DNA of 64,000 nucleotides from Neocallimastix sp. 'constans' (Eukaryota), in assembly GCA_050613775.1 (NCBI GenBank), contig JBODTK010000014.1, positions 1,302,001 through 1,366,000 on the forward strand. Reading direction: 5' to 3'. Made by a program: the position numbers and the translations under genes. The notes under the pieces are model-generated. The model made no database searches and had not been told where the DNA came from. It worked only from the letters and a program-made list of their open reading frames with translations. This document shows positions 12,457 through 29,789 of the stretch, in pieces (positions within the stretch are counted from its first letter, which is position 1; every line of letters starts with the position of its first letter).

Positions 12457-14249
12457 TTAATTACAAATACCGAAAACAGATTGACATCCTGACCCACAGT
12501 GTTTGCTTGAAGTACCACAGTATCCGTATTTGGAACAACATTGGTTCTTACCACATTTTATATTTCCGGCTTCAACACCACATCCATAATAAATATTATC
12601 AGCGGAGTAAACTAAATGTTTACCATTATTAATAAAGTAATTGTTACTATCACTGGAGAGTCCACTAATGGCATCTTTAAGAGCAATCTTCTTTAAATAT
12701 TTCAACATGGATTGGGTATTATAATTTGTGTTTGGTTGTTCACTCATAATTGTTGCAGCTACACCAGCTACAATAGGAGATGATATAGATGTTCCACTTA
12801 TCTTTGAAATAAAGGTTTTGAAGTCCCGATCATTATATAAAACTTTTGCTTTATATGGAGCGTAAATATCAACGCATTCGCCGTAATTTGAATTTGGGGC
12901 CTTTCTATAGTTATCGTTTCTCATTTCATCCATACTAGTAGCAAAATTATCAATACCACCAACACAAATAACATTCTTTGAATAACAATACATTTTATGT
13001 GTGCTACTACTGTAAGTTAATTTTTCATTTTTATTACCAGCAGATACAACTACAACAGCTTTTTTAGAAATTTCAGCAATTAAATCTAAAATGTATTCTG
13101 ATTCTAGTCGTTCTGATTTAGGATTACCATCACTCCATTGATATCCTTGAGAAATATTTACTACTGTTTTATATGGTCTTATTAATTTACTTTTAATAGT
13201 TTCTAATGCAGCAATAATATTTGAATGGGTAATATATCCATCTTCTTCTCCATTGTGATCATATAAAACACCATATACATTTGCTTTTGGAGCTACACCG
13301 GCTGTTAAACCTGCTGCAGCATCAGCAACCTTTGTTCCATGACTGTTTTCATCTTCACCGAAGCAATATTTTTTTTAGAATTATTTCTTGCTTTAGCATC
13401 TTTAACATAATAAGCACATTCAACTCTACGATTATTACCTTCAAATTCGGAGAATTCGAAATTAAATTGAGTATCTAATATAACAATATCAATATCTTTA
13501 CCTCCTGAACTTGGATAATAATAAGTATTATCATATTTATGTACTCTCTTTTCATTAAATTCACCTTGTGAAATTACTGATAAATGTGTTGTTACATCAT
13601 TTCTTACGGCTAGATTATTCCAGTTAGTTTCCCTTAACACCTCATTTTTATTGTAATCAAGTGTATGCTTTATTTTTCTATCGGGTTGACAACTAATTAC
13701 TTGTGGCATGGTATCCACAGTTTCAGATATACTATTAGAAAGGTAAGCGTATAAAACAGTTTTTTCTGAAGTTGAAGAAATTTTAAAAACGTAATTTGAA
13801 TTTCCGTAATCAAAAGCATATGGATCTTGTCCGTCTCTTTTTCTCAATTGAGCTGCTTCATCGTCTAATTCATCTAATTTTTTTGGATTTACATAAGAAT
13901 CTTTATTTCCGACAATTAAAGCATTAATTTCATCAATAAGCCCCTCGATATACATATCATTTAATTCACGCTTCATTTTTGAATTTTCAATAGTGGTATC
14001 ATTTGTTTTATAATTTTCAACAATAATTAAATAAAATTGATCTTTATTTTCGGCGGTTGGATTTTGGAATGGTTTTTGAGGTGGACCTTGAAGTGCTTTA
14101 GGAATTGGATGAGGAATTACTTTTGGTTGTGGGTTTGATGATTTAAAACGATTTTTGTTGCCATAAATTACGTTATGATAGGCATTGGCAACATCAAATA
14201 AATATGAGATAATACCTAATAAGAAGTATAAATTAATTTGCATTTTCAT
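12457..14249 (-). CDS. Secreted subtilisin-like S8 peptidase with C-terminal hevein/CBM18 chitin-binding domain; one frameshift at a T8 run (13369-13376)
   Basis: Signal peptide and prodomain; ILDT (Asp), SHGTKVA (His), VSAGN (oxyanion Asn), SGTSISSP (Ser); C-terminal CGKNQCCSKYGYCGTSSKHCGSGCQSVFGIC. Adding one A to the homopolymer joins ORFs 13305-14249 and 12457-12993. Confidence 0.9.
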
Positions 14250-15501: not shown

Positions 15502-18500
15502 CTAATGTATTTAAGGAATTAATTATATTATTATCTAAATTATTTTTATTAAAATTAACATAGATATTTTCTTCAGAAATATTATTTAAAAGGATAATCA
15601 TTTTTATTTGTATTATTCATTTTACTTATATTTTCAACAGAATGATAATTAATATTTTCATTATTATTCAAATGAATAAATAAAGTAGTATTTTTAATTT
15701 CTTTATTAATATTTTTAGAGTCAGGAATTAATCGAGAAAGTGCATCGGCAATAACATTTTTCTTTCCTTGTTTATATTTAACTATAATTTTTAACATACT
15801 AAAAGTTATAACCCATCTAGCTTGACGAGCATTATTTGGTTCTTTATTATTAAACAAACCTACTAAAGGTTTATAATCAGTAAATAAAATAGTATCATAT
15901 TTATTACCGTTAAAATAGGGTTTATATTTTAAACTACAATAATAAGCAGCTGTGTCCTCTAAATCAGTAATACTATAATTTATTTCAGTGGGTTTTAAAG
16001 ATCTAGTAATATCATCCCAGACATATTTTTCATTTTTCTTTAGTAGCTTAAATAATGGTTGAGCAATTATAGCAAAATCTTTAATAAATTTTCTATAATA
16101 TCCAATTGCACCTAAGAAAGATCTTAATTGAGTAATATTTTTAGGTGATTCCCATTTGGATATTACATCTATCTTTTTGGGTATTGGCTTTATACCTTCT
16201 GTGGATAAAATATGACCTAGTACTTCAACTTCTTGTTTAATAAAATGGCACTTTGATAAATTAGCCTTTAGACCATTTTCTTTAATAATATCAAAAACTT
16301 TTTGAAGATCCAATATGTGTTGTTCTAAGGTATTAGAAAATATTACTAAATCATCCATATAAATGGACATACATTTACCAATTAAAGGCAAGAATATTCT
16401 GTTCATTTCACGTTGGAAAGTTGCAGGAGCATTACAAAGGTGGGTTTGTGCTCGCGTCCTCTCTAGGAAATACAAAGTCCAAATGGCATAACTTTGTAAT
16501 TGTAATTTCCATACATAGTAGTAAAGCAAGTTTTCTCTCTATTTTCTTTTTTCATAGGAATCTGATGGAAACCAGAAAATAAGTCAAGCGTAGTTAAGTA
16601 CTTAACTTTATTGCCTATAGAAAATAATATTTCTTCTATATAAGGTAAAGGATATGCGTCTTTAATAGTAATATCATTTAATTTTCTATAGTCCACTACC
16701 ATTCTCCATTTACCATTCTTTTTAGGAACAAGAATAACTGGGAATGACCATGATGATTTTGAGGGTCCTATTAATCCATTTCTTAATAATTTACTTATTT
16801 CTTCTCTTAGTATACTCATTTGCTTCTTATTTGCTACTCGATACATTCTCTGTTCAATTGGCATTCGACCACTTATGATTTTTATTTTATGACTTAATAA
16901 TTTCGATTTACCTAAATCATCAGTATCAAGTGCTAATACATTTATATTATTTAATAATAAAAATTTTAGTTTGTTTCTAATTTTTGTTGGTGCTTTAGCA
17001 GCAATTTCGTGAATAGTTATTTCCTTTGCACTTTTAAAATTCTTATCAGTATTTTCAATAGAAATATCAATATTTTTGATTACTTTGTTTTCATAATTCC
17101 TTTTATTACTAATTTCATTATTAATTTTACATTCAAATACATTCTTTAAATAATTATCATTTTTATTTATATTATCATTAATATTGCAAAAATTATTTTC
17201 ATCTTTATCATCATGATTTCCAAAGGAATTATCAATATCATTATTATCATAATTTTCTTCATATAAAAATTGAATATATTTATCTTCAGTGGTTAGTAAA
17301 TAATCAATTAGCACATCTTTATTCAATTCTTCTTCGAATTCATCTTTAATATCATCTTCCTCATTTTCTATTTCTGTCACACTTTCAAAACTTCCTATCT
17401 TTCGTATCTCATCTGTTTTTTAATATAAGGTGTGATCAGAGAAGTCCATAATAATCTTCATTCTAGCTAGCGCATCCACATCAATTAATACTTGGAAAAT
17501 ATCATCTTTTTCAACCAATCTAAAGATTTCCTTAGAAGTAATATTTCCAATTGTTATTTCTATTTCATATAATTTTGAGATGAGCGTGGTATTAGTACAT
17601 GTTTGATATAAGGTTTCTTTAATAGCAGAAATTGGTTTAAATGGAATTTTATTATTTATCATGAAGGTTTTGGTGATCATATTAATAGAAGAACAGGAAT
17701 CTAAATAAACTGTAGTTTCTACGTTTTCTACCTTACATTTTGTTTTTTACAATCTTAGCTTTCTTAATTATTGATAAGGTTGTTTCTTCGTCTTCTAAAA
17801 TTGTTGTAAACTTTAAGGCTTTAGATAATTCAGTTCTCAATTTAGGATTAATATTGAGCTACTGTCCGATGGTAATATTAGTGAATTTATTTCCGATATC
17901 GTCAACTATATTATAATTATCTTGATTTCCTGTTATTTTTAATTTTTTTTGTAATGTTTTCTTTATTGGATTTTTCTACCTTTTTTTCACTTGGAAGTTG
18001 TATTTCTTTAGCTAATTCTTTTATTTCTTTAGCTCTTTCTTTCTTGTTTCTTCTTTTTGCTTCTTCAATTGAAGGTTCATTTATAAAAGATGGATAAAGA
18101 TGATTTAACGCTTCTGTTTCTTTTTGATTTTCATTTCCTTTATTATTACTATTAGTTTCACTTTCTGGCTCCATTTCCATTTGTTCCTGATTATTTGATG
18201 GAACTTTACTTGGTTGAGGATTTTCTTTTAAACTTTTCTTAGTTGCTTTCTTATATGGTTTATTTTCATTAGTTTTTCTACTTCTTTTATTAATACTTGT
18301 AATTATTTTCAAAAATAAAATAAAATTTTTATAATATTCAATTAATAATTTTAATAATAAATTTGATAATATTTAAATAATAATTTTTATAATAATTAAT
18401 AATACTTTTTAATAATAAATTTAATTAATAATTTTAATAATTTTATAATAATATTAAATAGTTATAATAAATAAATTTTTATAATGATATTTAATTAATA

Positions 18501-20117
18501 ATTTTAATAATTTATAGTATTAATAGTTTATAATAAATTTTATAATAATATTTAATTAATAATCTTAATAATTTATAGTATCTTAAAAGTATAATTTTAA
18601 TATTTACAATAGTATTTTAATATTTTAATATACACATATATTTAATAATATAACAATAAAGTAATTAATTAAAATTGATTTAAAATTATTTACAAGTTAA
18701 AATTAATTTATATCAAAATAAATTAATTTTTATAATTAGGTTTAGGTTATCAAGAATATAGGAAAAGTACAATTTAGTAAAGAATTATTTGTAAAAGAAA
18801 TTGATTGTTTAGGTAAGATTATAGTTAAATCTTATTGAGTGGTAGGTTAGATTCTTGCTATATCTTTCCTAATTTGGGTTAAATTGGTCAGGTCAAGATG
18901 TTCTTATTAATTATAACAATTTAATTAAATTTAAATAATAAATAACACACACAGTTTTATAATTAAGATTTCAATCTTTAAAATTTATGTTTTATTAGAA
19001 CTTTATTTAATATATATTTTAATAATAAAATTAACTATGATTAATTTAAAGAATTATTATTGTTATAATTAATTCATTAACTTTATGTTAATACATTATA
19101 AATTAATAATCTTACAAAGAATTCAAAATATGGAATTCAAATCCTTTTTATACTAAACTAAAATAATAATTAACAATATAAATAATTAATACATTTTAAT
19201 ACTAATGTATTCATACATGTATATAAACTATATAAATAATTAATACATTTTAATCTTAATATATTCATACATACATGTATATAAACTATATAAAATATAA
19301 TAATAAAATAATATTGATAAGAATCTTTTAATACAATAACTATATAATTATTCAAAAAACAATTTAATACTAAAACTAATTTAATAATAAAGTAATATAT
19401 AATAAAATAAAATATTAAAACTAATTAAAAATTCTCTTTCGGAAATCTTTAGAATGATAAAGAATTCTTTAAAATCTTTTAGAAAATAATTGAATAAAAT
19501 ATATAATAATAAAATATATAAAACTTATAAAACTTATTTAAAATATTATAAAACTATTACTAATAACTAATTCTGTATTTTTAATTAATAATAAAAATTA
19601 ATAATATAATTTCCAAGTTAAAAGATTTTATCTAATATAGATTTCTTAATTAATAATTTAGGGTCTTAATTAAATAATTAAATTATTTTTTATATTTAGA
19701 ATATCTTTAAAGTCCAATATTTCGTTATCTAGTTGTCCAATAAGGTTGATTTTAACATATGTTGTAGTTCTCATCTGTAGCTTTCTAATGAATATACTTT
19801 TAGCGGGAATGTCAATATAATATTTCCATTATTTATCGTGTTGTCGTTGTTTTTCTTCAAGTTATTTTTATTAAATTCTTAAAGGTTAAAATAAATTAAA
19901 TTATCTTTAATGAGTCCAAACCCTTTGGTTTCTGATTATTTAATGTTTCTAATATTTATTTTTTATAATTAAAAATCGAATTAAAATAATTTTTGTCAAT
20001 AACTAAATTAAATTTCAATTGATCTAATAGTGAATTTTAACCTCAAATCCACTAGTATTCGTGACAAATTAATAATATTTTATAACAAAATAAATGTTAT
20101 TAATTCATTCTTTACCA
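15021..20117 (-). mobile_element. Degenerate Ty3/Gypsy LTR retrotransposon (element D); gag and most of integrase lost
   Basis: Fragmented pol: protease YLDSCSS (about 17700), RT (WRMVVDYRKLN, LDLFSGFHQI, MPFGLC/NAPATFQR, YMDD), RNase H with an internal deletion (NVIADALSR). Right terminus ...cattctttacca at 20117; the left limit and the link between this terminus and the pol fragments are uncertain. Confidence 0.8.
19061..20066 (-). mobile_element. Possible LTR-like segment nested in element D (TGTTAT...GTGACA)
   Basis: TG...CA termini with imperfect inverted repeat and a minus-strand tataaaaagg near 19145-19152; no matching TSD found. Confidence 0.35.
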
Positions 20118-20121
20118 AAAA

Positions 20122-20903
20122 TGGTATGGTTCATATAATTTTAGGAATATAATAATAATTAACACAAATAATAAAATTACAATAAAAAAATAATTTGTTT
20201 TAAAATCAATATTTATTTATTTAAATTTATAAAAGAAAAATAATAATATAATTATTTATTTAATAAAAGTAAGTTATTGATTATATTTTATTTCACTAAA
20301 AATTACATGTATTTATATTTTTTTATCAAATTAAAATTTGTAAAGCCTAACTATTTTTTTAATAAACTAATTACTAATTATTTTTATAAATAAAACATTT
20401 AAATTGAAATTGAATTATTATTTTAGTTAATAATATTATTGTTATAAATAGTAGTTATATATTATTGAATTATTAATTATTTAATAATAGTTTAATACTA
20501 ATATATATAAAATAAAAATAAAGAGATTATACAGAATATTTTATTGTGGTTTAGTTAAATTTAGTAATTAAAAATAAATTTAAATTGATAACGAAAATTT
20601 TAATAACTAATTAAATAGATTTGATTATTTTCAATATAACATAATACAAAAGAAATATAATATTAATATATTAAGTGGGCAAGGACAATATTGGCTAAAG
20701 ATTTTTAATACATTATATGGAATCGGATCGATAATTCAAAAAGGAATTATAAGTTAATTGGTGATTTATTAACTTAAGATTCCTATTTAGTAATATTTGA
20801 AGAATATTGGAAAGTTCCAATTATATAGAATAGAATAATCTATAAGGTTAGAATAATTTATATTATTCTAGCACAATTAGTATTATTTGTTCATTCTGTA
20901 TTA
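20122..20903 (-). mobile_element. Decayed solo LTR (element C), 782 bp, flanked by AAAA on both sides
   Basis: Starts TGGTAT and ends cattctGTATTA (CC>TT decay of GTACCA); shares the terminal cattct motif with neighbours B and D; AAAA at 20118-20121 and 20904-20907. Confidence 0.6.
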
Positions 20904-20907
20904 AAAA

Positions 20908-21000
20908 TGTTAAGGTTTTAGAGAATTAAATAAAAATAAAGAAACACAAATTTTATTTATTTATTTATTTATTTTATTTATTTATTTTATTAAATTTATT

Positions 21001-21053
<53 letters not shown>

Positions 21054-21292
21054 TTATTATTTTTATTTATAAATTTATTTGATTTTATTCGATGATTTTT
21101 TAAAAATTGGTAGCAAAATTTACAACTATTTATACTTTTTTTCAAGGCATAAAAGTTGTTCTTGCCACTAAATTACATTTTATTTATTTTTTTTTTTATA
21201 AAAACTATTAAATTTAAATTGAATTTTATAATCAATTATATAAAATTTAATTATAACAATATAAATAAAATACATTTATAATATTAATAAAA

Positions 21293-21326
<34 letters not shown>

Positions 21327-21813
21327 TATCTAAAATATTACTAATAAGAATTTATTTAATTGGCTATAAATTTTTATTACAATCTGTTAAAATATTCAAA
21401 TAAAAATAAAAATACTATTCTAATATAAAGGTTTTTAATAAAATAAAATATTTTTCAATATAAAATAAAACATTTCGATATAAAATTTTATAATAAAAGT
21501 TAAAATATAATATATAAATTTTTAATTATCAATATATAAAAATATTATTAATACAAATTTTCCTTATTAATATAAAAATAAAAAAAATAAGATTTATTAT
21601 TAATATTGCTAATATAAGTTTTAAATATATAAAAATATTACTATTAATATAAGATTTAATATAAAAATATAAAGTTTAATATAATTTTTGATTTAATTTT
21701 TGATCTTTGGATTTAAAAATTTATTAAAGTACAAAAATAATAATGTACACATAATGTATTAGAAATAAATCGTAGATTTAATTAAGAATGCATTATTTAG
21801 TACATTCTTATCA
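20908..21813 (-). repeat. 3' LTR of element B (906 bp; carries an extra poly-T-containing duplication near 21000-21080)
   Basis: Colinear with 28171-29017, apart from scattered substitutions and indels. Confidence 0.95.
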
Positions 21814-21831
21814 AGATGCCCCGACGAAGAC

Positions 21832-24800
21832 TCAAGCTTCTCTGTAAGCGGAGTTAAACTTTACTAAATTTTTAAAGTGAACATTCCAATCGAGTTGCTT
21901 TCCAGTCTTTTGATCGATTAGGGTTGCCGTGTTGAATTGAATTTTTAAAATTTTAAATGGTCCATTGTAATATGGTTCTAGCTTAGTGCGGCTAAAGTTT
22001 CTAACAAGAACAAGATCACCAGCCTTTAATTCTTTTCCTTTTTTCATACTTATTTGTTCTTCTCGTCTTGTTGCCCAATACTTGTTAGCATTCTTCACAT
22101 TTTCGCATGCTTCTCTAGTCCATTGATAATGACGAACAAATTTTTCCATTAAAATTTCATCATATGATTTACCTGCATTTTCAATTGTTCTTATGGCTAT
22201 ATCATAAGGCTGTTGGTCTTCTCTTCCATATACTAATTCAAAACTAGAATGTCCAGTAGCTGTATTTTTGGTAGTTCGAAGTGCCCATAAAGCAGAAGGT
22301 AAAACTTCATCCCAATCTTGATTTTTCCTTCCTAATAAACGGAGTAATTTTCCAATTTCTTTATTTCGATTTTCAGTAAGGCCATTTGATTCAGGGTGGT
22401 AAGTAGCTACAAATTTAACATATACATCATAAAGATCAAGAAAGATTTTAGTCATATCAGAAGTGAATTGGACTCCATTATCAGTAGTAATAACTTGAGG
22501 CACACCATGTCTTGCAAAAACGTTTATTAAAAATTTAATTATATCAGAGGAAGTTATGTTTTCAGTGGGTTCGGCTTCAACCCATTTGGTAAAGTAATCA
22601 ACAGTTACTATAATATATTGATTATTATTTCTTGTTTTTGGTAACGGTCCTATAATATCTAATCCTAAATGCACAAAGGGACCCTCTACTTTAGTTGGAT
22701 GGTTTTCGGTTGGTTCTGGATATGGTTGAGGACGATTTAACTGGCATTTTTCACAATTACTAACAATTCTTTTGATATCTTTAATCATATGATTCCAATA
22801 AAAGTTTTTCTTAAGTCTTTGATATGTTTTGTAATATCCTTCGTGGCCAATATTATGAGCTTCTAAAATTAATTTAAATTTTTCATTTTCATCCGTTATT
22901 AATTTTCTATAATTTCCATTGTCGATAAAGTAATCTTCACCATCAATAAAAGTAAACTTTTCATTAATAAATTCCTTTATAACTTTAGATAATAATTCTT
23001 CATTATTTCCATTAGTAATTTTTGTTAATAATATCTTTCTCTCTTCCTTACTTTTCATTCTTGAAAGAGCATCAGCTAACACATTCTTTTTGCCTGATTC
23101 ATATTTTATATTAATTCCAAGCATACTAGCGGTTAGACACCATCTTGTTTGCCTTGCATTCAAAGGTTCTTTATTCTTAAATAAACCAACTAATGGTTTA
23201 TGATCTGTGTAAATAGTTGTAGGTAATGGATTTCCTTCAATATAAGACTTAAATTTAGTCATACAGTAAAATAAAGCTGTTCCTTCCAAATCTGTGATAC
23301 CATAATTCTTTTCAGCTTTCTTCAAACTTCTACTTATAAAGTGTATTGGATGCTCCTTACCGGTTTCTTCTTCTTTTTGTAAAAGAACTCCACCAATTCT
23401 ATTATACGAAGCATCAGTTCTAATGATAAAAGGTTTGTCAAATGATGGAAATTTTAGAATAGGTGCATTGATTAATTTTTCTTTTAGGAGTTCAAAGCTT
23501 TCTTGTTGTTCTTTATTCCATTCATATTTAGTATTCTTTTTCAATAATTTACATAAAGGTGAGGTAATTTGAGCATATTTAGGAATAAAGTCACGATAAT
23601 ATCCTACTGCTCCTAGAAATGATCTTAATTCATGAAGTGATGAAGGTGCTTCCCACTTCTTAATAGCTGTTATTTTGCTTTCCATGGGGCTTAATCCTTT
23701 AGTAGTAAGTTTGTGGCCTAATACATCAACTTCAGTTTGAAGAAAATGGCACTTTTCAATATTAATTTTTAACTTGTTTTCTTTAAATACTTCTAAGACT
23801 TGTTTAATATGGACTAAATGTTCTTCAATACTTTTGGAATAGATCAAAACATCATCAATAAATACGTAAACAAATTCACCAATAAAAGGGAATAAAATTT
23901 TATTCATTTCTCTTTGGAAGGTTGAGGGAGCTCCAGTAAGTCCAAAAGGCATAACCTTAAATTGATAATTTCCAAACTTAGTAGTGAAAGTGGTTACTTC
24001 AACGCTTTCGTCATCCATTAAGATTTGGTGAAAACCAGAAAATAAATCAAGAGTTGTAAATATTTTAACTCCTCCGAGACTATCAAAAATTTCATCTATA
24101 TATGGAACTGAATAAGAATCTTTTTCTGTCATATCATTGACTTTTCGGTAGTCAATGCACAAGCGCCACTTTCCATTGTGTTTTAGAATAAGTACTACTG
24201 GAGATGACCATTCTGAACAGGATGGTTCTATCAATCCTTTCTTAATAAGTTTTGTAAGTTCTTCTTTTAAGATATCTGATTTTAATTTAGTTAACCTATA
24301 ACTTCTTAATTTTACTGGCTTTGAATTTGCTTTTAAACGGATCTTATGTGGTGAAAGTTTAGAAGGAGTTAGTTCTTCTGTTGAAGTGGCAACTATGACA
24401 ATCATTTCTTTGAGAATTTTAATAATTTGTTCTTTATAATCTTTATTTAAGGTACTTAAAAATTCATCACTCTCAATAAATTCCATTGGAGTTAATTCCT
24501 TTATAATTTCTTTTTCTTTATTCGTTTCTTTAACTTTTCTAATAGTGCAAATTATACTTTCTTCATCATAATATTGATTATTTATTTTAGCTATTTCTTC
24601 GTATTCACTTTCTGACAAAAGTTTACATAAACTGTTTAAGGTCGGATGAATAAATAAACAATGATCGATTTGAGTTTTAAAGTTTATTAACATATCATAA
24701 AATGAGTCTTCTTTCTCAATAATTCTAAAGTCCGCATTAAATTCATAATTATTAATTTTTACTGGTAATCGAACAATAATTCCTTCCGAGTATTCTTCAT

Positions 24801-25842
24801 CTTGTGTTGCTAGTTGGATTCTTCCACGACTTTTTCCAACTGTTTCATATTCACCAGGTAATTTATCAAAATACTGCTTAGTAACGATGCTTAGGTTACT
24901 ACAAGAATCAATTAAAATTTTTCCTAGTACTCCGTCAACACTTGCATCAACCATTGCTAAGTCTTCTTCGGCTACTTCATTACTTTTACTTATGTAGCTA
25001 TGATCATAGTTATTTACTAATAAAGTTCGTGCTATTACATTGTCTACAGTTCCAATTATTTTAGACTTTTCTAACTTTAAACCTTGAGTTAATTGTGAAC
25101 GAATTTTCGGACATGCATTCAAGAGTTGACCTATCGTAATACTGGATTTAAGATTATTTAAATCATCCATAATATTGTAAGGTTCTTTATTATTCATCAT
25201 TTTGATATTCCTTTTTACTAACTGAGTATTTTCATTATTAGTTTCTTTAGTTTTTGTTGAAATTAATTTTTCCAAAGTATTAGTTTTATTTTGTTGATTA
25301 TCTTTATTCATTTCTAGATCTTCTATTTCATTATCGATTACAAGTATATCTTCAGATTCAACTTTTTCCTTTCCTTTTGATGAATAATTGTTGTTTTCTT
25401 CTTTACTTTCTCTTACTCTTGTTATATTTCTTAATTCCTTTTCTTTTTGTTTTTCTTTGTTAATATTTGGTTGAGTTAAAATTGAAGGAAGTATTTGATT
25501 TTTATAAACTTTATTTGGTTTATTATGTAGCTCATTTTCTTTCTTCTTTCTTAAAGCAGGAGTTGTGAAAGGACGTGGATTATCTTTTAAACTTTTATGT
25601 ACTTTCTTGGAATTATTTTCTTCTTTTTCGCTGTTATTATCATTCATTTTTCTTTTTATAGCATTTATAATGATATCATCCTCACTTTCAGTTGTGTCAC
25701 TAAAATCAGATTCTTCAGATTCTTCATTAAAGGAATTATTATCAATTGGAGTATTCTTAGTAAAAGTATTATTTTGTAAATTATTTAATGAAGCTATTGT
25801 TTTGTCATTGGGAGTGCTTCTGCTCCCATTTAGAAGTTTAAA
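21832..25842 (-). CDS. pol: Pol polyprotein (protease, RT, RNase H, integrase), entered by -1 frameshift; first AUG at 25647
   Basis: ILIDSCS, WRLCIDYRKVN, FIDD, RTDAS, H-x3-H...CEKC zinc finger, DIIGP / TDNG / ENRN catalytic core, C-terminal GPF module and no chromodomain. The frame is open upstream from 25647 to the slippery site at 25842. Confidence 0.95.
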   Translation of the reverse strand, partial: FKLLNGSRSTPNDKTIASLNNLQNNTFTKNTPIDNNSFNEESEESDFSDTTESEDDIIINAIKRKMNDNNSEKEENNSKKVHKSLKDNPRPFTTPALRKKKENELHNKPNKVYKNQILPSILTQPNINKEKQKEKELRNITRVRESKEENNNYSSKGKEKVESEDILVIDNEIEDLEMNKDNQQNKTNTLEKLISTKTKETNNENTQLVKRNIKMMNNKEPYNIMDDLNNLKSSITIGQLLNACPKIRSQLTQGLKLEKSKIIGTVDNVIARTLLVNNYDHSYISKSNEVAEEDLAMVDASVDGVLGKILIDSCSNLSIVTKQYFDKLPGEYETVGKSRGRIQLATQDEEYSEGIIVRLPVKINNYEFNADFRIIEKEDSFYDMLINFKTQIDHCLFIHPTLNSLCKLLSESEYEEIAKINNQYYDEESIICTIRKVKETNKEKEIIKELTPMEFIESDEFLSTLNKDYKEQIIKILKEMIVIVATSTEELTPSKLSPHKIRLKANSKPVKLRSYRLTKLKSDILKEELTKLIKKGLIEPSCSEWSSPVVLILKHNGKWRLCIDYRKVNDMTEKDSYSVPYIDEIFDSLGGVKIFTTLDLFSGFHQILMDDESVEVTTFTTKFGNYQFKVMPFGLTGAPSTFQREMNKILFPFIGEFVYVFIDDVLIYSKSIEEHLVHIKQVLEVFKENKLKINIEKCHFLQTEVDVLGHKLTTKGLSPMESKITAIKKWEAPSSLHELRSFLGAVGYYRDFIPKYAQITSPLCKLLKKNTKYEWNKEQQESFELLKEKLINAPILKFPSFDKPFIIRTDASYNRIGGVLLQKEEETGKEHPIHFISRSLKKAEKNYGITDLEGTALFYCMTKFKSYIEGNPLPTTIYTDHKPLVGLFKNKEPLNARQTRWCLTASMLGINIKYESGKKNVLADALSRMKSKEERKILLTKITNGNNEELLSKVIKEFINEKFTFIDGEDYFIDNGNYRKLITDENEKFKLILEAHNIGHEGYYKTYQRLKKNFYWNHMIKDIKRIVSNCEKCQLNRPQPYPEPTENHPTKVEGPFVHLGLDIIGPLPKTRNNNQYIIVTVDYFTKWVEAEPTENITSSDIIKFLINVFARHGVPQVITTDNGVQFTSDMTKIFLDLYDVYVKFVATYHPESNGLTENRNKEIGKLLRLLGRKNQDWDEVLPSALWALRTTKNTATGHSSFELVYGREDQQPYDIAIRTIENAGKSYDEILMEKFVRHYQWTREACENVKNANKYWATRREEQISMKKGKELKAGDLVLVRNFSRTKLEPYYNGPFKILKIQFNTATLIDQKTGKQLDWNVHFKNLVKFNSAYREA
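25790..25842 (-). promoter_or_regulatory. -1 programmed ribosomal frameshift signal: U_UUA_AAC, 7-nt spacer, H-type pseudoknot
   Basis: Minus strand reads UUUAAAC UUCUAAA UGGGAG CA GAAGC A CUCCCA (14 nt) GCUUC; UUA_AAC is in the gag frame and UUU_AAA is in the pol frame. Confidence 0.88.
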
Positions 25843-26741
25843 GACTTTTTGGAATATATTTCTTTTTTATTTTTTTCCATAATCTTATTTAATTGAGGGC
25901 AATAGTATGAGTAATGACCTTCTTCCTTACAGAAGAAGCAAGTTTTAACAGATAAATTTCTCATTTTCTGGGTTGATTCTTCTATAATATCTTGAGGTTT
26001 CAGTTTATTATTTGTTTGACTTGTTTGGAAAGTTTCGTTTCTTCTTTTAGGATAAAGTCTTGAAGTAGTACTGTTTTGATTATTTTGATTATGCTGGGAA
26101 TTATTAACATTATAGGTATTAATATTATTGTTCCTTACAGAAAGTCTATCTACTTTCTCGGCAATTTTGAAAGCTTTCTCCATACTTATATCATCTTTAA
26201 GGGATAATTTCTTCCAGGCTTCATAATTATTTTGAATAGAATCAATATAATCTAGTACACCAATGCGCTTTCTTCTCTTTTTATCAAGTTTAGTGTACAA
26301 AGTTCTATATCTTACATTAAAGTCTTTAATCTTTTCGTTTCTTTTAATTCGCATTGCACGAAGTTCTTTAAGAAGTAAATTTTGGTCTTCTTTAATACCG
26401 TAAAAATTTTCAAGACTTGAAATAATTTTTCCAAGAGAAGGAAATTTAATATCATCATCAACATTTTCTTCTTCATCATCTTCTTCTTCTTCATCTGATG
26501 AATCATCACTTTCATCATCACTATCTTCTCCCAAATCTTCAATAACGCGTTGTACTTCACCAGAGCTGGTAAGTAAACAAGCATTAAATATTGTTTCTGG
26601 ATCTGTAATACCTTGTATCTTGATCCAAAGTTTTAATTCAGTAGCCCAGGACTTAATATCTAAATTGTCCTTGCTAAGTTTCACAATATCTCTTAATTCT
26701 TTTTTCAATTCTTTAAAGCTCAAAGTTGTTTCCTTGGACAT
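25830..26741 (-). CDS. gag: Gag (303 aa from MSKETT) with acidic insert and CCHC zinc knuckle
   Basis: CFFCKEEGHYSYYC knuckle; position upstream of pol within element B; first AUG at 26741 (the ORF track starts at an upstream TTG). Confidence 0.92.
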   Translation of the reverse strand: MSKETTLSFKELKKELRDIVKLSKDNLDIKSWATELKLWIKIQGITDPETIFNACLLTSSGEVQRVIEDLGEDSDDESDDSSDEEEEDDEEENVDDDIKFPSLGKIISSLENFYGIKEDQNLLLKELRAMRIKRNEKIKDFNVRYRTLYTKLDKKRRKRIGVLDYIDSIQNNYEAWKKLSLKDDISMEKAFKIAEKVDRLSVRNNNINTYNVNNSQHNQNNQNSTTSRLYPKRRNETFQTSQTNNKLKPQDIIEESTQKMRNLSVKTCFFCKEEGHYSYYCPQLNKIMEKNKKEIYSKKSLNF

Positions 26742-26916
26742 TTTGTTTAAATATTTCTTGTTGTATATTAATGAGATGATTAAATAAGAATAAATTTGGA
26801 AATACAACTTTAAAAATATAATTTAATAGGTAATTTAATATCGAATCAATTTTTAAAACAATATATTTTAGTAACTTTTGAAAATAATAATTTTATTTGC
26901 TTTCTTTAGTAGATAT

Positions 26917-27145
26917 AAGCTCGAAATCCTTATCGACAACTTAGTAGAAATTATAAAGCACGAGGTTCTTTTCGACCACTTTATTAAGAATAATTTTTAA
27001 GTTCGAAATCTTTATCGACAACTCAATAGAATAATTTTAAGTTCGAAATCTTTATCGACAACTTAATAGAATAATTTTAAGTTCGAAATCTTTATCGACA
27101 ACTTAATAGAATATTTTTCAAGCTCGAAATTTTTATCGACCACTT
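26917..27145. repeat. Six ~40-bp tandem repeats in the element B leader, each with a hairpin core
   Basis: Core aagttcgaaatctttatcgacaactt at 26999, 27039 and 27079, with variants at 26917, about 26956 and 27120. Confidence 0.9.
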
Positions 27146-28146
27146 GAATTTTGTAATTTAGTATATTTGTAGTAATAAATTTAGAAGCAAAGTTTTATTT
27201 ATTATTTTCACCTTTCAAAAATTTTTCTTTTTAAACGATAAATATTGTATTGTTATAGCTAATAAAATTATTAATTAATTATAATTATTAAACACAAAAA
27301 ATAATCTTTATTGTCGTACAATCTGATAGTACACACTGTCTGACGTGCAGCTTACCTAATGGTGTCATGCCACGCGTGTGCCACGATTACTATATTCAAT
27401 ATAAAATATAGCAGTTCAGAGCCCACTAGCCCAATTACTATGTAGGATAAACTTAATCCGATAATCTATGTACGGAATAAAAAAAATTTTAAAAGTATTC
27501 AATAATATTTTTATTAACTAATAAAAATTAGCTAAAAACACAATATTTTCAAAGTAAATTAAGATTCTATTACAGGAATTATATAACAAATAAAGTACCA
27601 GTAATAAAGAAAAAAAAATAAAAAAATTTAAATGGCGAAGTTAGCCAAAGTCTGATACTTTATATAATAAAGTGCCTTATAACTAGCACAAAGAAAAATA
27701 AAAAAAAATATAAAAAAAAACAATCTTACGCCTTCGGTGACGTAAGCTCCTTATTCGCCAGTGCTTGGAAAGTACCCGCACCTTCGTGTGTTGAAACGTT
27801 GAAGGCTGAACTATTATTACCGGGTCGGTAACCAAATACCTTCGTCTACTTTCCAATTAATTCCCAAAATAACTATTATCCAATAACCTACTATGAATAA
27901 TAGATATTTTGTTGTTTTCTGGAAATACACTGTATATGAGCTCTATCCGCTCCTTGTTATAATTTACAATCTTTTTTTTTAGAATCTTAATTTTACTTAT
28001 TTTAAAAAAAAAATTTTTTTTTTTTTATATATATATCAAACAAGCGCCATAGGTTAATCAAAGGATTAACGACTTACTTGTTTATCAATATAAAATAAAA
28101 AAAAATTAAACAAAATCTATGTTATTTACTATTATTTCTATTTAAT

Positions 28147-28164
28147 TCCCCGATATCTCCACCA
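28147..28164 (-). promoter_or_regulatory. Primer binding site, probably for tRNA-Ala
   Basis: Minus strand TGGTGGAGATATCGGGGA is complementary to a tRNA 3' end ...UCCCCGAUAUCUCCACCA (an Ala-type ...UCUCCACCA end); it lies 6 nt from the 5' LTR. Confidence 0.8.
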
Positions 28165-28170
28165 TATAAA

Positions 28171-28485
28171 TGTTAAGGTTTTAGAGAATTAAATAAAAAT
28201 AAAGTAAGAAACACAAATTTTATTTATTTATTTATTTATTTTATTTATTTATTTTATTAAATTTATTTGATTTTATTTGATGATTTTTTTAAAAATTGGT
28301 AGCAAAATTTACAACTATTTATACTTTTTTTCAAGGCATAAAAGTTGTTCTTGCCACTAAATTACATTTTATTTTTTTTTTTTTTTTTTTATAAAAACTA
28401 TTAAATTTAAATTGAATTTTATAATCAATTATATAAAATTTAATTATAACAATATAAATAAAATACATTTATAATATTAATAAAA

Positions 28486-28527
<42 letters not shown>

Positions 28528-29017
28528 TATCTAAAATATTACTAATAAGAATTTATTTAATTGGCTATAATTTATATTACAATCTGTTAAAATATTCAAA
28601 TAGAAATAAAAATAATATTCTAATATAAAGGTTTTTAATAAAATAAAATTTTTTTTAATATAAAATAAAACATTTCGATATAAAATTTTATAATAAAAGT
28701 TAAAATATAATATATAAATTTTTAATCATCAATATATAAAAATATTATTAATACAAATTTTCATTATTAATATAAAAATAAAAAAAAATAAGATTTATTA
28801 TTAATATTGCTAATATAAGTTTTAAATATATAAAAATATTACTTTTAAAATATAAGATTTAATATAAAAATATAAAGTTTAATATAATTTTTGATTTAAT
28901 TTTTGATCTTTGGATTTAAAAATTTATTAAAGTACAAAAAATAATAATGTACACATAATGTATTAGAAATAAATCGTAGATTTAATTAAGAATGCATTAT
29001 TTAGTACATTCTTATCA
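28171..29017 (-). repeat. 5' LTR of element B (847 bp)
   Basis: Matches 20908-21813 and is adjacent to the PBS. Confidence 0.95.
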
Positions 29018-29021
29018 AAAA

Positions 29022-29580
29022 TGGTACGTTATTTTTATATATTGTACCTTTTATATGATTTGGGGAAAGCAAGTTGTAAAACTATAAAATAATATATTCT
29101 AATAAAAGAAATAAATAAAAGAATTATAACACAAAATTAATAATAAATTTTAATAAATAATAATGTGTTACTTTTAAGTCTTTATTTTATTTATAAGTTT
29201 TGTTCTTTAAATAAGTACATTTAAATTTATTATAACTTTATTATATCTTTAAATTTATATTTTAATAATAATATTAACCAAAATATCCTAAATATTTATT
29301 CACCCGAATAAATATTTTATAATTCCTATTCTAACTATTATATTCTTTAAAGATATTAAATTATTAAGTTCCTCTTTTGTTAGTATTTTATCTTTCACTT
29401 ATTTTTATACTATAATTTATCTTAATTCTTATTGGTTATCTATTAATTAAAATTATTTTTATTAATATTATAATTTTATATACTAATTAAACCTTATACC
29501 TATTATAATAAAATAACTAAAGAATTATTTATTTTCTTATATTTTTAATAATTTATTCTATTTTAGTGAGTAACGTACCA
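29022..29580. mobile_element. Solo LTR (element A), 559 bp, with perfect 10-bp terminal inverted repeat, 15 bp upstream of the tRNA
   Basis: TGGTACGTTA (29022-29031) / TAACGTACCA (29571-29580), TG...CA ends, flanked by AAAA on both sides. Confidence 0.75.
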
Positions 29581-29595
29581 AAAAATTAATCAAAA

Positions 29596-29666
29596 GGTTC
29601 TATAGTGTAGTGGTAGCACATTAGACTCTGAATCTAATAACCCGAGTTCGAACCTCGGTAGGACCT
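29596..29666 (+). tRNA. tRNA-Gln(CTG), intronless
   Basis: Acceptor GGTTCTA/TAGGACC, anticodon arm TTAGA-CTCTGAA-TCTAA, T arm CCGAG-TTCGAAC-CTCGG; oligo-T Pol III terminator immediately downstream. Confidence 0.96.
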
Positions 29667-29789
29667 AATTTTTTTATTTTTTAAATGTTATAAATAAATA
29701 AAATTTTTTTTTTATAAATAAAATTTTTTTTTATAATTATAAATATATATATATATATATTTTTTTTTACTTTCTGTTATAATGAATTA

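What the first reader, a model, noticed from the sequence alone, without database searches (positions are those of the whole stretch)
20103..29666. Stack of at least four LTR elements inserted at the same nucleotide 15 bp upstream of tRNA-Gln: candidate tRNA-targeted retrotransposon system
Seen: four successive junctions have the same form, element end + AAAA + next unit: cattctttacca|AAAA|tggtat (20117/20122), cattctgtatta|AAAA|tgttaa (20903/20908), cattcttatca|AAAA|tggtac (29017/29022) and aacgtacca|AAAA attaatcaaaa|tRNA (29580/29596). The LTRs are different sequences, so this is not a tandem duplication of one unit. Established: yeast Ty3 and Dictyostelium DGLT-A integrate just upstream of tRNA genes, Ty3 via TFIIIB. 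Inference: several related Gypsy families repeatedly hit one 4-bp site at -15..-12 from the mature tRNA, each pushing earlier insertions outward. I am not aware of this being described for anaerobic gut fungi.
Basis: partly seen in the sequence, partly recalled or inferred. Interest (0 to 1): 0.92.

Follow-up and report, generated by a model that had tools for sequence, protein, structure and literature searches.

The report
tRNA-aimed retrotransposon clade in gut fungi
Related jumping genes of an anaerobic gut fungus (two confirmed and two likely) sit end to end at one four-base spot 15 bases before a tRNA gene, and a likely fifth relative ends at the same base in another sample, so this group likely aims at tRNA genes as yeast Ty3 does, although its integrase lacks the module Ty3 aims with.

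Summary
Confirmed: four junctions with AAAA, 15 bp before tRNA-Gln(CTG). B (20908-29017) is an intact Ty3/gypsy element with LTRs about 1% apart. D (29022-29580) is a solo LTR: in public runs its ends continue into a primer site and a PPT, and its gag-pol parent was found. C and the A end match the clade's LTR termini by profile only. In an independent faecal run a tRNA-Gln copy carries another clade-like LTR end at the same base (-16), with TCGA in place of AAAA. So position, not sequence, likely sets the site. Of 4 upstream flanks seen, 1 had this, 1 was uninformative, 2 lacked it. All five face the same way. The clade belongs to Neocallimastigomycota, has no chromodomain, makes 4-bp duplications and has a conserved -1 frameshift signal. 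It works like Ty3/DGLT-A but is neither. No genome was held, so the genome-wide test is open, and family B may be too abundant to be strictly tRNA-bound. Ten literature searches found no report for gut fungi; the scan noted similar cases on other DNA (e1-8067551, e1-9986045).

The parts
15582..18372 (-). Element A remnant: pol N-terminal piece, protease, RT broken by a frameshift, partial RNase H; no integrase or gag found
   Evidence: RT falls inside the gut-fungal clade
20106..20117 (-). Likely outer (U3) end of an LTR, assigned to element A by position; inner boundary and primer site not found
   Evidence: profile rank 136 of 127,978 alone, junction rank 2
20118..20121 (+). AAAA target copy 1
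20122..20903 (-). C: likely solo LTR, 782 bp, decayed U3 end
   Evidence: U5 end ranks 5 of 127,978 and U3 end 828 with a profile not trained on C; no second copy found
20904..20907 (+). AAAA target copy 2 (left duplication of B)
20908..21813 (-). B 3' LTR (906 bp)
21814..21830 (-). PPT-position G-rich tract of B, same form as in L006, L008, L010 and D's parent
21832..25866 (-). B pol, 1344 codons without a stop: protease, RT, RNase H, integrase (HHCC, D-D-E, long helix, beta-barrel CTD, no chromodomain)
25836..25842 (-). Slippery heptamer UUUAAAC in the gag/pol overlap, followed by a conserved 6-pair hairpin; predicted -1 frameshift
25830..26741 (-). B gag with CCHC zinc knuckle
26916..27145 (.). 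Short tandem repeats in B's 5' leader
28148..28164 (-). Primer-binding site of B (tRNA-Ala-like; assignment recalled, not tested)
   Evidence: the same start in D's parent L061 and in L006
28171..29017 (-). B 5' LTR (847 bp)
29018..29021 (+). AAAA target copy 3 (right duplication of B, left of D)
29022..29580 (-). D: solo LTR, 559 bp, 9-bp perfect inverted termini, of a multi-copy gag-pol family
29581..29584 (+). AAAA target copy 4, at -15..-12 of the mature tRNA
29596..29666 (+). tRNA-Gln(CTG) gene; T7 terminator at 29669-29675

Best explanation
This is a stack of LTR retrotransposons (two confirmed, two likely) of one gut-fungal Ty3/gypsy clade that likely integrate by position, about 12-15 bases before RNA polymerase III genes. 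The integration complex is likely tethered to the Pol III initiation factors bound at the tRNA gene (inferred from Ty3 and DGLT-A, not tested). It would cut 4 bases apart at -15..-12 and always place the element's 5' LTR toward the tRNA. The tRNA promoter is internal, so the target survives each event. The next family would hit the same four bases, duplicate them again and push older copies outward (A, then C, B, D). Recombination between LTRs would leave C and D as solo LTRs. The integrase ends right after its beta-barrel CTD, so Ty3's chromodomain contact with Brf1 cannot be used. The likeliest tether is the CTD on its long helix touching TBP/TFIIIB, or a DGLT-A-like RNase H / integrase N-terminal contact with TFIIIC. 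Shown: anatomy, LTR identity of B and D, the clade, no chromodomain. Inferred: tethering, order of events, family-wide specificity.
For: (1) Three exact LTR-end|4 bp|LTR-start junctions rank 1-3 on the element strand; no element lies inside another. (2) D is a true LTR with primer-site and PPT flanks elsewhere and a gag-pol parent. (3) Run X4 (another sample and study): a contig aligns without gaps to 29584-29652, and its loose letters put an LTR-like CA end at -17/-16, as for D. Read on the element strand it matches the LTR start of clade member L008 at 12 of 13 bases. A match this close to any of 14 clade termini occurs at 6 of 108,389 background positions. The four bases at -15..-12 there are TCGA. 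(4) A depth-119 contig in X8 begins exactly at -15, as a branch at an insertion point would make it (weak). (5) In X8 the D end + AAA contig has depth 365 against about 1,700-2,300 for D contigs, so most D ends are not followed by AAA. (6) The distance equals Ty3 (~15 bp) and DGLT-A (18 of 20 at 13-18 bp) (PMC5006619 and PMC6101501 passages). (7) The integrase is collinear with Ty3 through residue 1440 of 7q5b and has a 42-residue helix before the CTD, the feature that carries the TFIIIB contact in Ty3.
Against: No genome was held, so only two loci bear on the question. Of the 4 upstream flanks listed (X8, X13; divergent tRNAs with a D-loop insertion, perhaps from other organisms) had no clade-like end at -16 by eye, 1 stopped at -15, and run X7 laid nothing. 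Only 30 letters of the X4 flank were seen: no second end, no duplication, and it is unknown whether it is the same locus. Summed depth over B's LTR is roughly ten times D's in X1, X2 and X8 (not a copy number); if B has many hundreds of LTRs, strict tRNA specificity would need deep stacks at most tRNA genes. C and A are supported only by terminal motifs. The long CCD-CTD helix is also found in foamy virus, which does not target tRNA genes.
Confidence: 0.8

Rival explanations
1. Elements home to the ends of earlier LTRs or to a CA-AAAA sequence; the tRNA is incidental or matters only for the first insertion.
For: All four junctions in the window read AAAA. An X8 contig shows a B-like end with 9 differences running into AAAATGGT (record 25), so such junctions may recur.
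Against: The X4 insertion has TCGA at the same position and no earlier LTR between it and the tRNA. Most D ends in X8 are not followed by AAA. Re-duplication of one target explains the identical AAAA.
Confidence: 0.07
2. Only part of the clade (D-like and L008-like families) is strictly tRNA-targeted; the abundant family B has a loose preference and is mostly elsewhere.
For: B's LTR depth is about ten times D's. No second B flank could be read: the metagenome scan gave 3 hits, of which only L004 was B, a collapsed internal copy.
Against: B sits exactly in the 4-bp slot, in the same orientation as the others, which a non-targeted element would rarely do (inference). B's integrase has the same architecture as its relatives.
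Confidence: 0.25
3. Chance pile-up in an AT-rich intergenic region kept by weak selection, or an assembly artefact.
For: The window is 17% G+C and AAAA makes up 4.9% of its 4-mers. No listed contig bridges the junctions.
Against: Three base-exact junctions with no nesting, a perfect 4-bp duplication around B, and an independent insertion at the same base in another sample.
Confidence: 0.05

Closest known systems
Ty3 of Saccharomyces cerevisiae (Ty3/gypsy, Metaviridae)
   Same: Domain order PR-RT-RH-IN; best PDB match for RT/RNase H (4ol8, 7q5b, E about 1e-79). Integrase collinear through the CTD with a long helical linker. Insertion about 15 bp before the mature tRNA.
   Different: No chromodomain (Ty3 IN 446-511 contacts Brf1); 4-bp rather than 5-bp duplication; one orientation in 5 of 5 ends, whereas Ty3 inserts in both. 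Predicted -1 frameshift and tRNA-Ala-like primer, against +1 and initiator Met in Ty3 (Ty3 values recalled).
DGLT-A of dictyostelid amoebae
   Same: Chromodomain-less Ty3/gypsy element, 13-18 bp before tRNA genes, many solo LTRs, several related families per genome, CCHC gag.
   Different: DGLT-A has a single ORF; B has gag and pol in two frames. Its tether is Tfc4 of TFIIIC, not testable here. Relatedness not tested: no DGLT-A sequence was held.
Tj1 (Schizosaccharomyces japonicus), Tca8/beta (Candida albicans), Tyl3/Ylt1/Tyl6 (Yarrowia lipolytica)
   Same: Fungal Ty3/gypsy elements just upstream of tRNA genes (PMC5911963 section 11).
   Different: All are ascomycete; that table lists no early-diverging fungus. 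Sequence relationship not tested.

Membership tests
Ty3/gypsy LTR retrotransposons (Metaviridae) | Two LTRs with TG...CA ends, primer site, PPT and target duplication | tested here: met
   B:
Ty3/gypsy LTR retrotransposons (Metaviridae) | gag, then pol in the order PR-RT-RH-IN | tested here: met
Ty3/gypsy LTR retrotransposons (Metaviridae) | RT closest to Ty3-type RTs | tested here: met
   Ty3 RT is the best of 12 PDB sequences
Ty3 (S. cerevisiae) type | C-terminal chromodomain on integrase | tested here: not met
   11 residues remain after the position matching 7q5b 1440; the model ends after the CTD; tails of 4-30 aa in all 67 of 120 homologues that carried the terminal motif
Ty3 (S. cerevisiae) type | 5-bp target duplication | tested here: not met
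   4 bp at all three internal junctions; gap 5 scores lower
Ty3 (S. cerevisiae) type | Insertion at the Pol III start region genome-wide | tested here: inconclusive
   two loci agree at -16 (window); no genome held
Ty3 (S. cerevisiae) type | Integrase binds TBP/Brf1 | not testable with these tools
   no host TFIIIB sequence held; needs an experiment
DGLT-A | No chromodomain | tested here: met
DGLT-A | Single gag-pol ORF | tested here: not met
   gag 25830-26741 and pol 21832-25866 lie in different frames
DGLT-A | Groups with DGLT-A in an RT-RH-IN tree | not tested
   no DGLT-A or Ty3 sequence was in the tree
DGLT-A | RNase H / IN-NED bind Tfc4 | not testable with these tools
   needs an experiment
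Chromoviruses | Chromodomain at the integrase C-terminus | tested here: not met
   no PF00385; the clade is separate from chromodomain-bearing Closterium elements in a quick tree

The most novel reading that the evidence does not exclude
A whole radiation of gut-fungal Ty3/gypsy families (about a hundred protein clusters, including the very abundant family B) aims at one base, -16, before Pol III genes in one fixed orientation. It does so through an independently evolved, chromodomain-free contact with TFIIIB or TFIIIC. Families compete for the same slot and build multi-kilobase, time-ordered stacks at tRNA genes, and an intact copy offers a native safe-harbour integrator for fungi that are hard to transform.
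Probability: 0.35. Interest if true: 0.72.

Novelty: new variant of a known kind. Interest (0 to 1): 0.52.

Why it matters
Precise insertion at Pol III start sites is known from ascomycete yeasts and social amoebae and is explained as a way to live in compact genomes. Its integrase lacks the chromodomain that fixes Ty3's position, so it offers a third molecular solution to compare with Ty3 and DGLT-A. Ordered stacks record the sequence in which families were active. An intact element with a benign fixed target could become an integration tool for gut fungi. The principle itself is not new, and the scan has noted similar cases on other DNA.

Tried and rejected
No genome for the window. Viral contigs: protein scans found no relative; the B-end pattern gave 2 hits with no similarity to the window; the tRNA + LTR-end pattern gave 0. 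Metagenome scan with a joint B/D end pattern: 3 hits, one collapsed B copy without flank (L004) and two unrelated. MAGs holding misbinned fungal contigs: tRNA-Gln query 0 of 5; A-tail + C query gave only weak AT-rich matches; D end + tRNA 0 of 301 and 0 of 106 genomes, C 0 of 31. These empty answers show nothing. No tRNA lay on 16 loci at default ARAGORN; a relaxed run with introns gave 76 calls that I rejected as spurious, since no A/B-box pattern was present. Laying contigs did not return the individual genomic flanks of D or B. Run X7 laid nothing on the tRNA stretch. No gag or integrase remnant of A was found. The tree is the quick one (SH-aLRT only; the careful search did not finish) and holds no Ty3 or DGLT-A row. 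In one search the L010 U5 end was off by one base; corrected, which moved C's U5 rank from 2 to 5. No complex prediction was sent: no host factor was held. Rejected: tandem duplication of one unit, and AAAA as a required target sequence.
Full report
Observation. The window is 17% G+C and no genome is held for it. The four junctions are as described. Reading toward the tRNA: an LTR-like end at 20117, AAAA, unit C (20122-20903), AAAA, element B (20908-29017), AAAA, unit D (29022-29580), AAAA, an 11-base spacer, and tRNA-Gln(CTG) at 29596-29666. Fifteen bases lie between D and the tRNA, and the last AAAA is at -15..-12.

Element B. B lies on the minus strand. Its LTRs (20908-21813, 28171-29017) differ by about 9 substitutions in 827 columns. 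It has a primer site at 28148-28164 (tRNA-Ala-like, recalled), a gag with a CCHC knuckle, and a stop-free 1344-codon pol in the order protease, RT, RNase H, integrase. The gag/pol overlap holds UUUAAAC followed by a six-pair hairpin. The same signal is in 7 of the 7 elements I chose to align because they had the heptamer there; L009 had none at that place. A -1 frameshift is predicted. About 100 of the 120 listed homologues are 42-99% identical and come mostly from unnamed metagenome contigs; the named ones are from Orpinomyces sp. (Orpsp1) and Neocallimastix lanati. In a quick RT tree, B, A and 30 such rows form one clade (SH-aLRT 98), apart from chromodomain-bearing elements.

D, C and A. 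Laying four public runs on 28860-29735 showed depth steps at 29017/29022 and 29580. In the rows shown, a primer-site flank precedes 29022 in X2, X6 and X8 and a PPT-like flank follows 29580 in X1, X6 and X8. A misbinned contig (L061) begins with D's terminal 59 bases at 100% identity and goes on into a primer site, gag and the start of pol. D is therefore a solo LTR of a sister family, in the same orientation as B. C and the A end were not found elsewhere. A profile of clade LTR termini trained without them ranks the A|C junction second on the element strand, C's U5 end 5th of 127,978, and the three stack junctions first to third (the top junction is in the training set). A's pol remnant (15582-18372) is frameshifted and lacks gag and integrase. 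Whether the 20117 end is its own LTR is assumed from position.

Independent evidence on targeting. The second laying used 29556-29652 on runs X4, X8, X13 and X7. In X4, a 139-base contig aligns without gaps from -12 through the tRNA (3 differences). Its loose letters end ...CCGTAACA TCG, which puts an LTR-like CA at -17/-16, the same bases as D's end. On the element strand it matches the LTR start of clade member L008 at 12 of 13 bases (0 of 200 shuffles); a match that close to any of 14 clade termini occurs at 6 of 108,389 background positions. The library was drawn up after I saw the match, though L008's boundary was in view. The four bases at -15..-12 are TCGA, and the orientation is the same as in the window. 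In X8 one contig starts exactly at -15 (weak hint of a branch there), and the D end + AAA piece has depth 365 against about 1,700-2,300 for D contigs. Against: two other flanks (X8, X13; tRNAs with an extra D-loop base) show no clade-like end at -16 by eye, X7 laid nothing, only 30 letters of the X4 flank were seen, and no listed contig bridges the window's own junctions. B's LTR is about ten times deeper than D's, which may mean that B is not confined to tRNA genes.

Mechanism. Shown: the anatomy above, a 4-bp duplication, and one orientation in all five ends. Inferred: the integration complex is tethered to Pol III factors and cuts at a fixed distance. The internal promoter keeps the target alive, each new element duplicates the same four bases and pushes older ones outward, and LTR recombination leaves solo LTRs. 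The decay gradient (A broken, C with a decayed end, B intact, D with perfect termini) fits, though B landing between C and D is not excluded. The integrase aligns with Ty3 (7q5b) to residue 1440 with 11 residues left. The model (pLDDT 78) shows a 42-residue helix, a beta-barrel and then the end, and it matches foamy-virus and Ty3 integrases. All 67 of 120 homologues with the terminal motif end 4-30 residues later. Ty3's chromodomain (IN 446-511), which contacts Brf1, is thus absent clade-wide. A CTD-TBP contact or a DGLT-A-like Tfc4 contact are the candidates; neither was tested.

Comparison and literature. It works like Ty3 and DGLT-A but fails membership of each: no chromodomain and a 4-bp duplication against Ty3, two ORFs against DGLT-A. 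I read: PMC5911963 (abstract, sections 10 and 11), PMC6101501 (passages), 10.1101/2021.07.27.453949 (passages and section 7), PMC5006619 (passages) and PMC6673722 (passages). No supplements were opened; TE tables in fungal genome supplements could bear on novelty. Searches pairing gut or early-diverging fungi with retrotransposons and tRNA genes gave 0, 1, 0, 1, 1 listed, 0, 3 and 0 papers, none on this by title or abstract start; two searches gave the Ty3/DGLT-A papers. Subscription journals and repeat databases were not covered.

Earlier scan notes. e1-8067551 (probable gut fungus, two LTR elements 16 bp before tRNA-Leu) and e1-9986045 (early-diverging fungus, clade lacking Ty3's module) describe like cases on other DNA. 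I did not check them, and they are not counted as support. Look-ups by place and by sequence were empty.

Verdict. A real stack, likely made by a tRNA-targeting gut-fungal Ty3/gypsy clade (0.8). New variant of a known kind. Interest 0.52; the genome-wide test is still to be done.

Noticed in passing
window:25790-25845 (-), L061, L008, L010, L013, L015, L016: Conserved UUUAAAC plus a six-pair hairpin at the gag/pol overlap across families; 1 pair shows a change on both sides. Predicted -1 frameshift signal.
   Followed up: partly
L006-L016, L018, L061, L070, L078, L094, L095: Gut-fungal retrotransposon contigs are binned inside bacterial and archaeal MAGs of the species-representative collection; likely contamination by high-coverage repeats.
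   Followed up: partly
L070, L078, L094, L095: A second gypsy lineage from the same MAGs groups with Closterium and plant elements, apart from the clade of B.
   Followed up: no
window:12457-14249 (-): Subtilisin (S8) gene with a C-terminal chitin-binding module, split by a frame change near 13305-13374 beside a T run; intron, sequencing slip or pseudogene not decided.
   Followed up: no
window:4352-5425 (+): Glycosyl transferase family 3 ORF (anthranilate phosphoribosyltransferase-like by family; label recalled), 357 codons in one frame.
   Followed up: no
window:34678-37476 (+): 932-codon ankyrin-repeat ORF with a 117/120-bp period.
   Followed up: no
L098 (=L008):5908-6251: Directly after the LTR end the contig continues into a unit of about 270 bp that begins to repeat; its nature is unknown.
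   Followed up: no
window:28918-29025, run X8 record 25: A contig of depth 31 with 9 differences from B's LTR end runs into AAAATGGT; it may be a second B-type stack junction.
   Followed up: no
window: near 21880 (-), integrase C-terminus: The window's B has W where P0001 and most relatives have R before the terminal motif, a possible private substitution.
   Followed up: no
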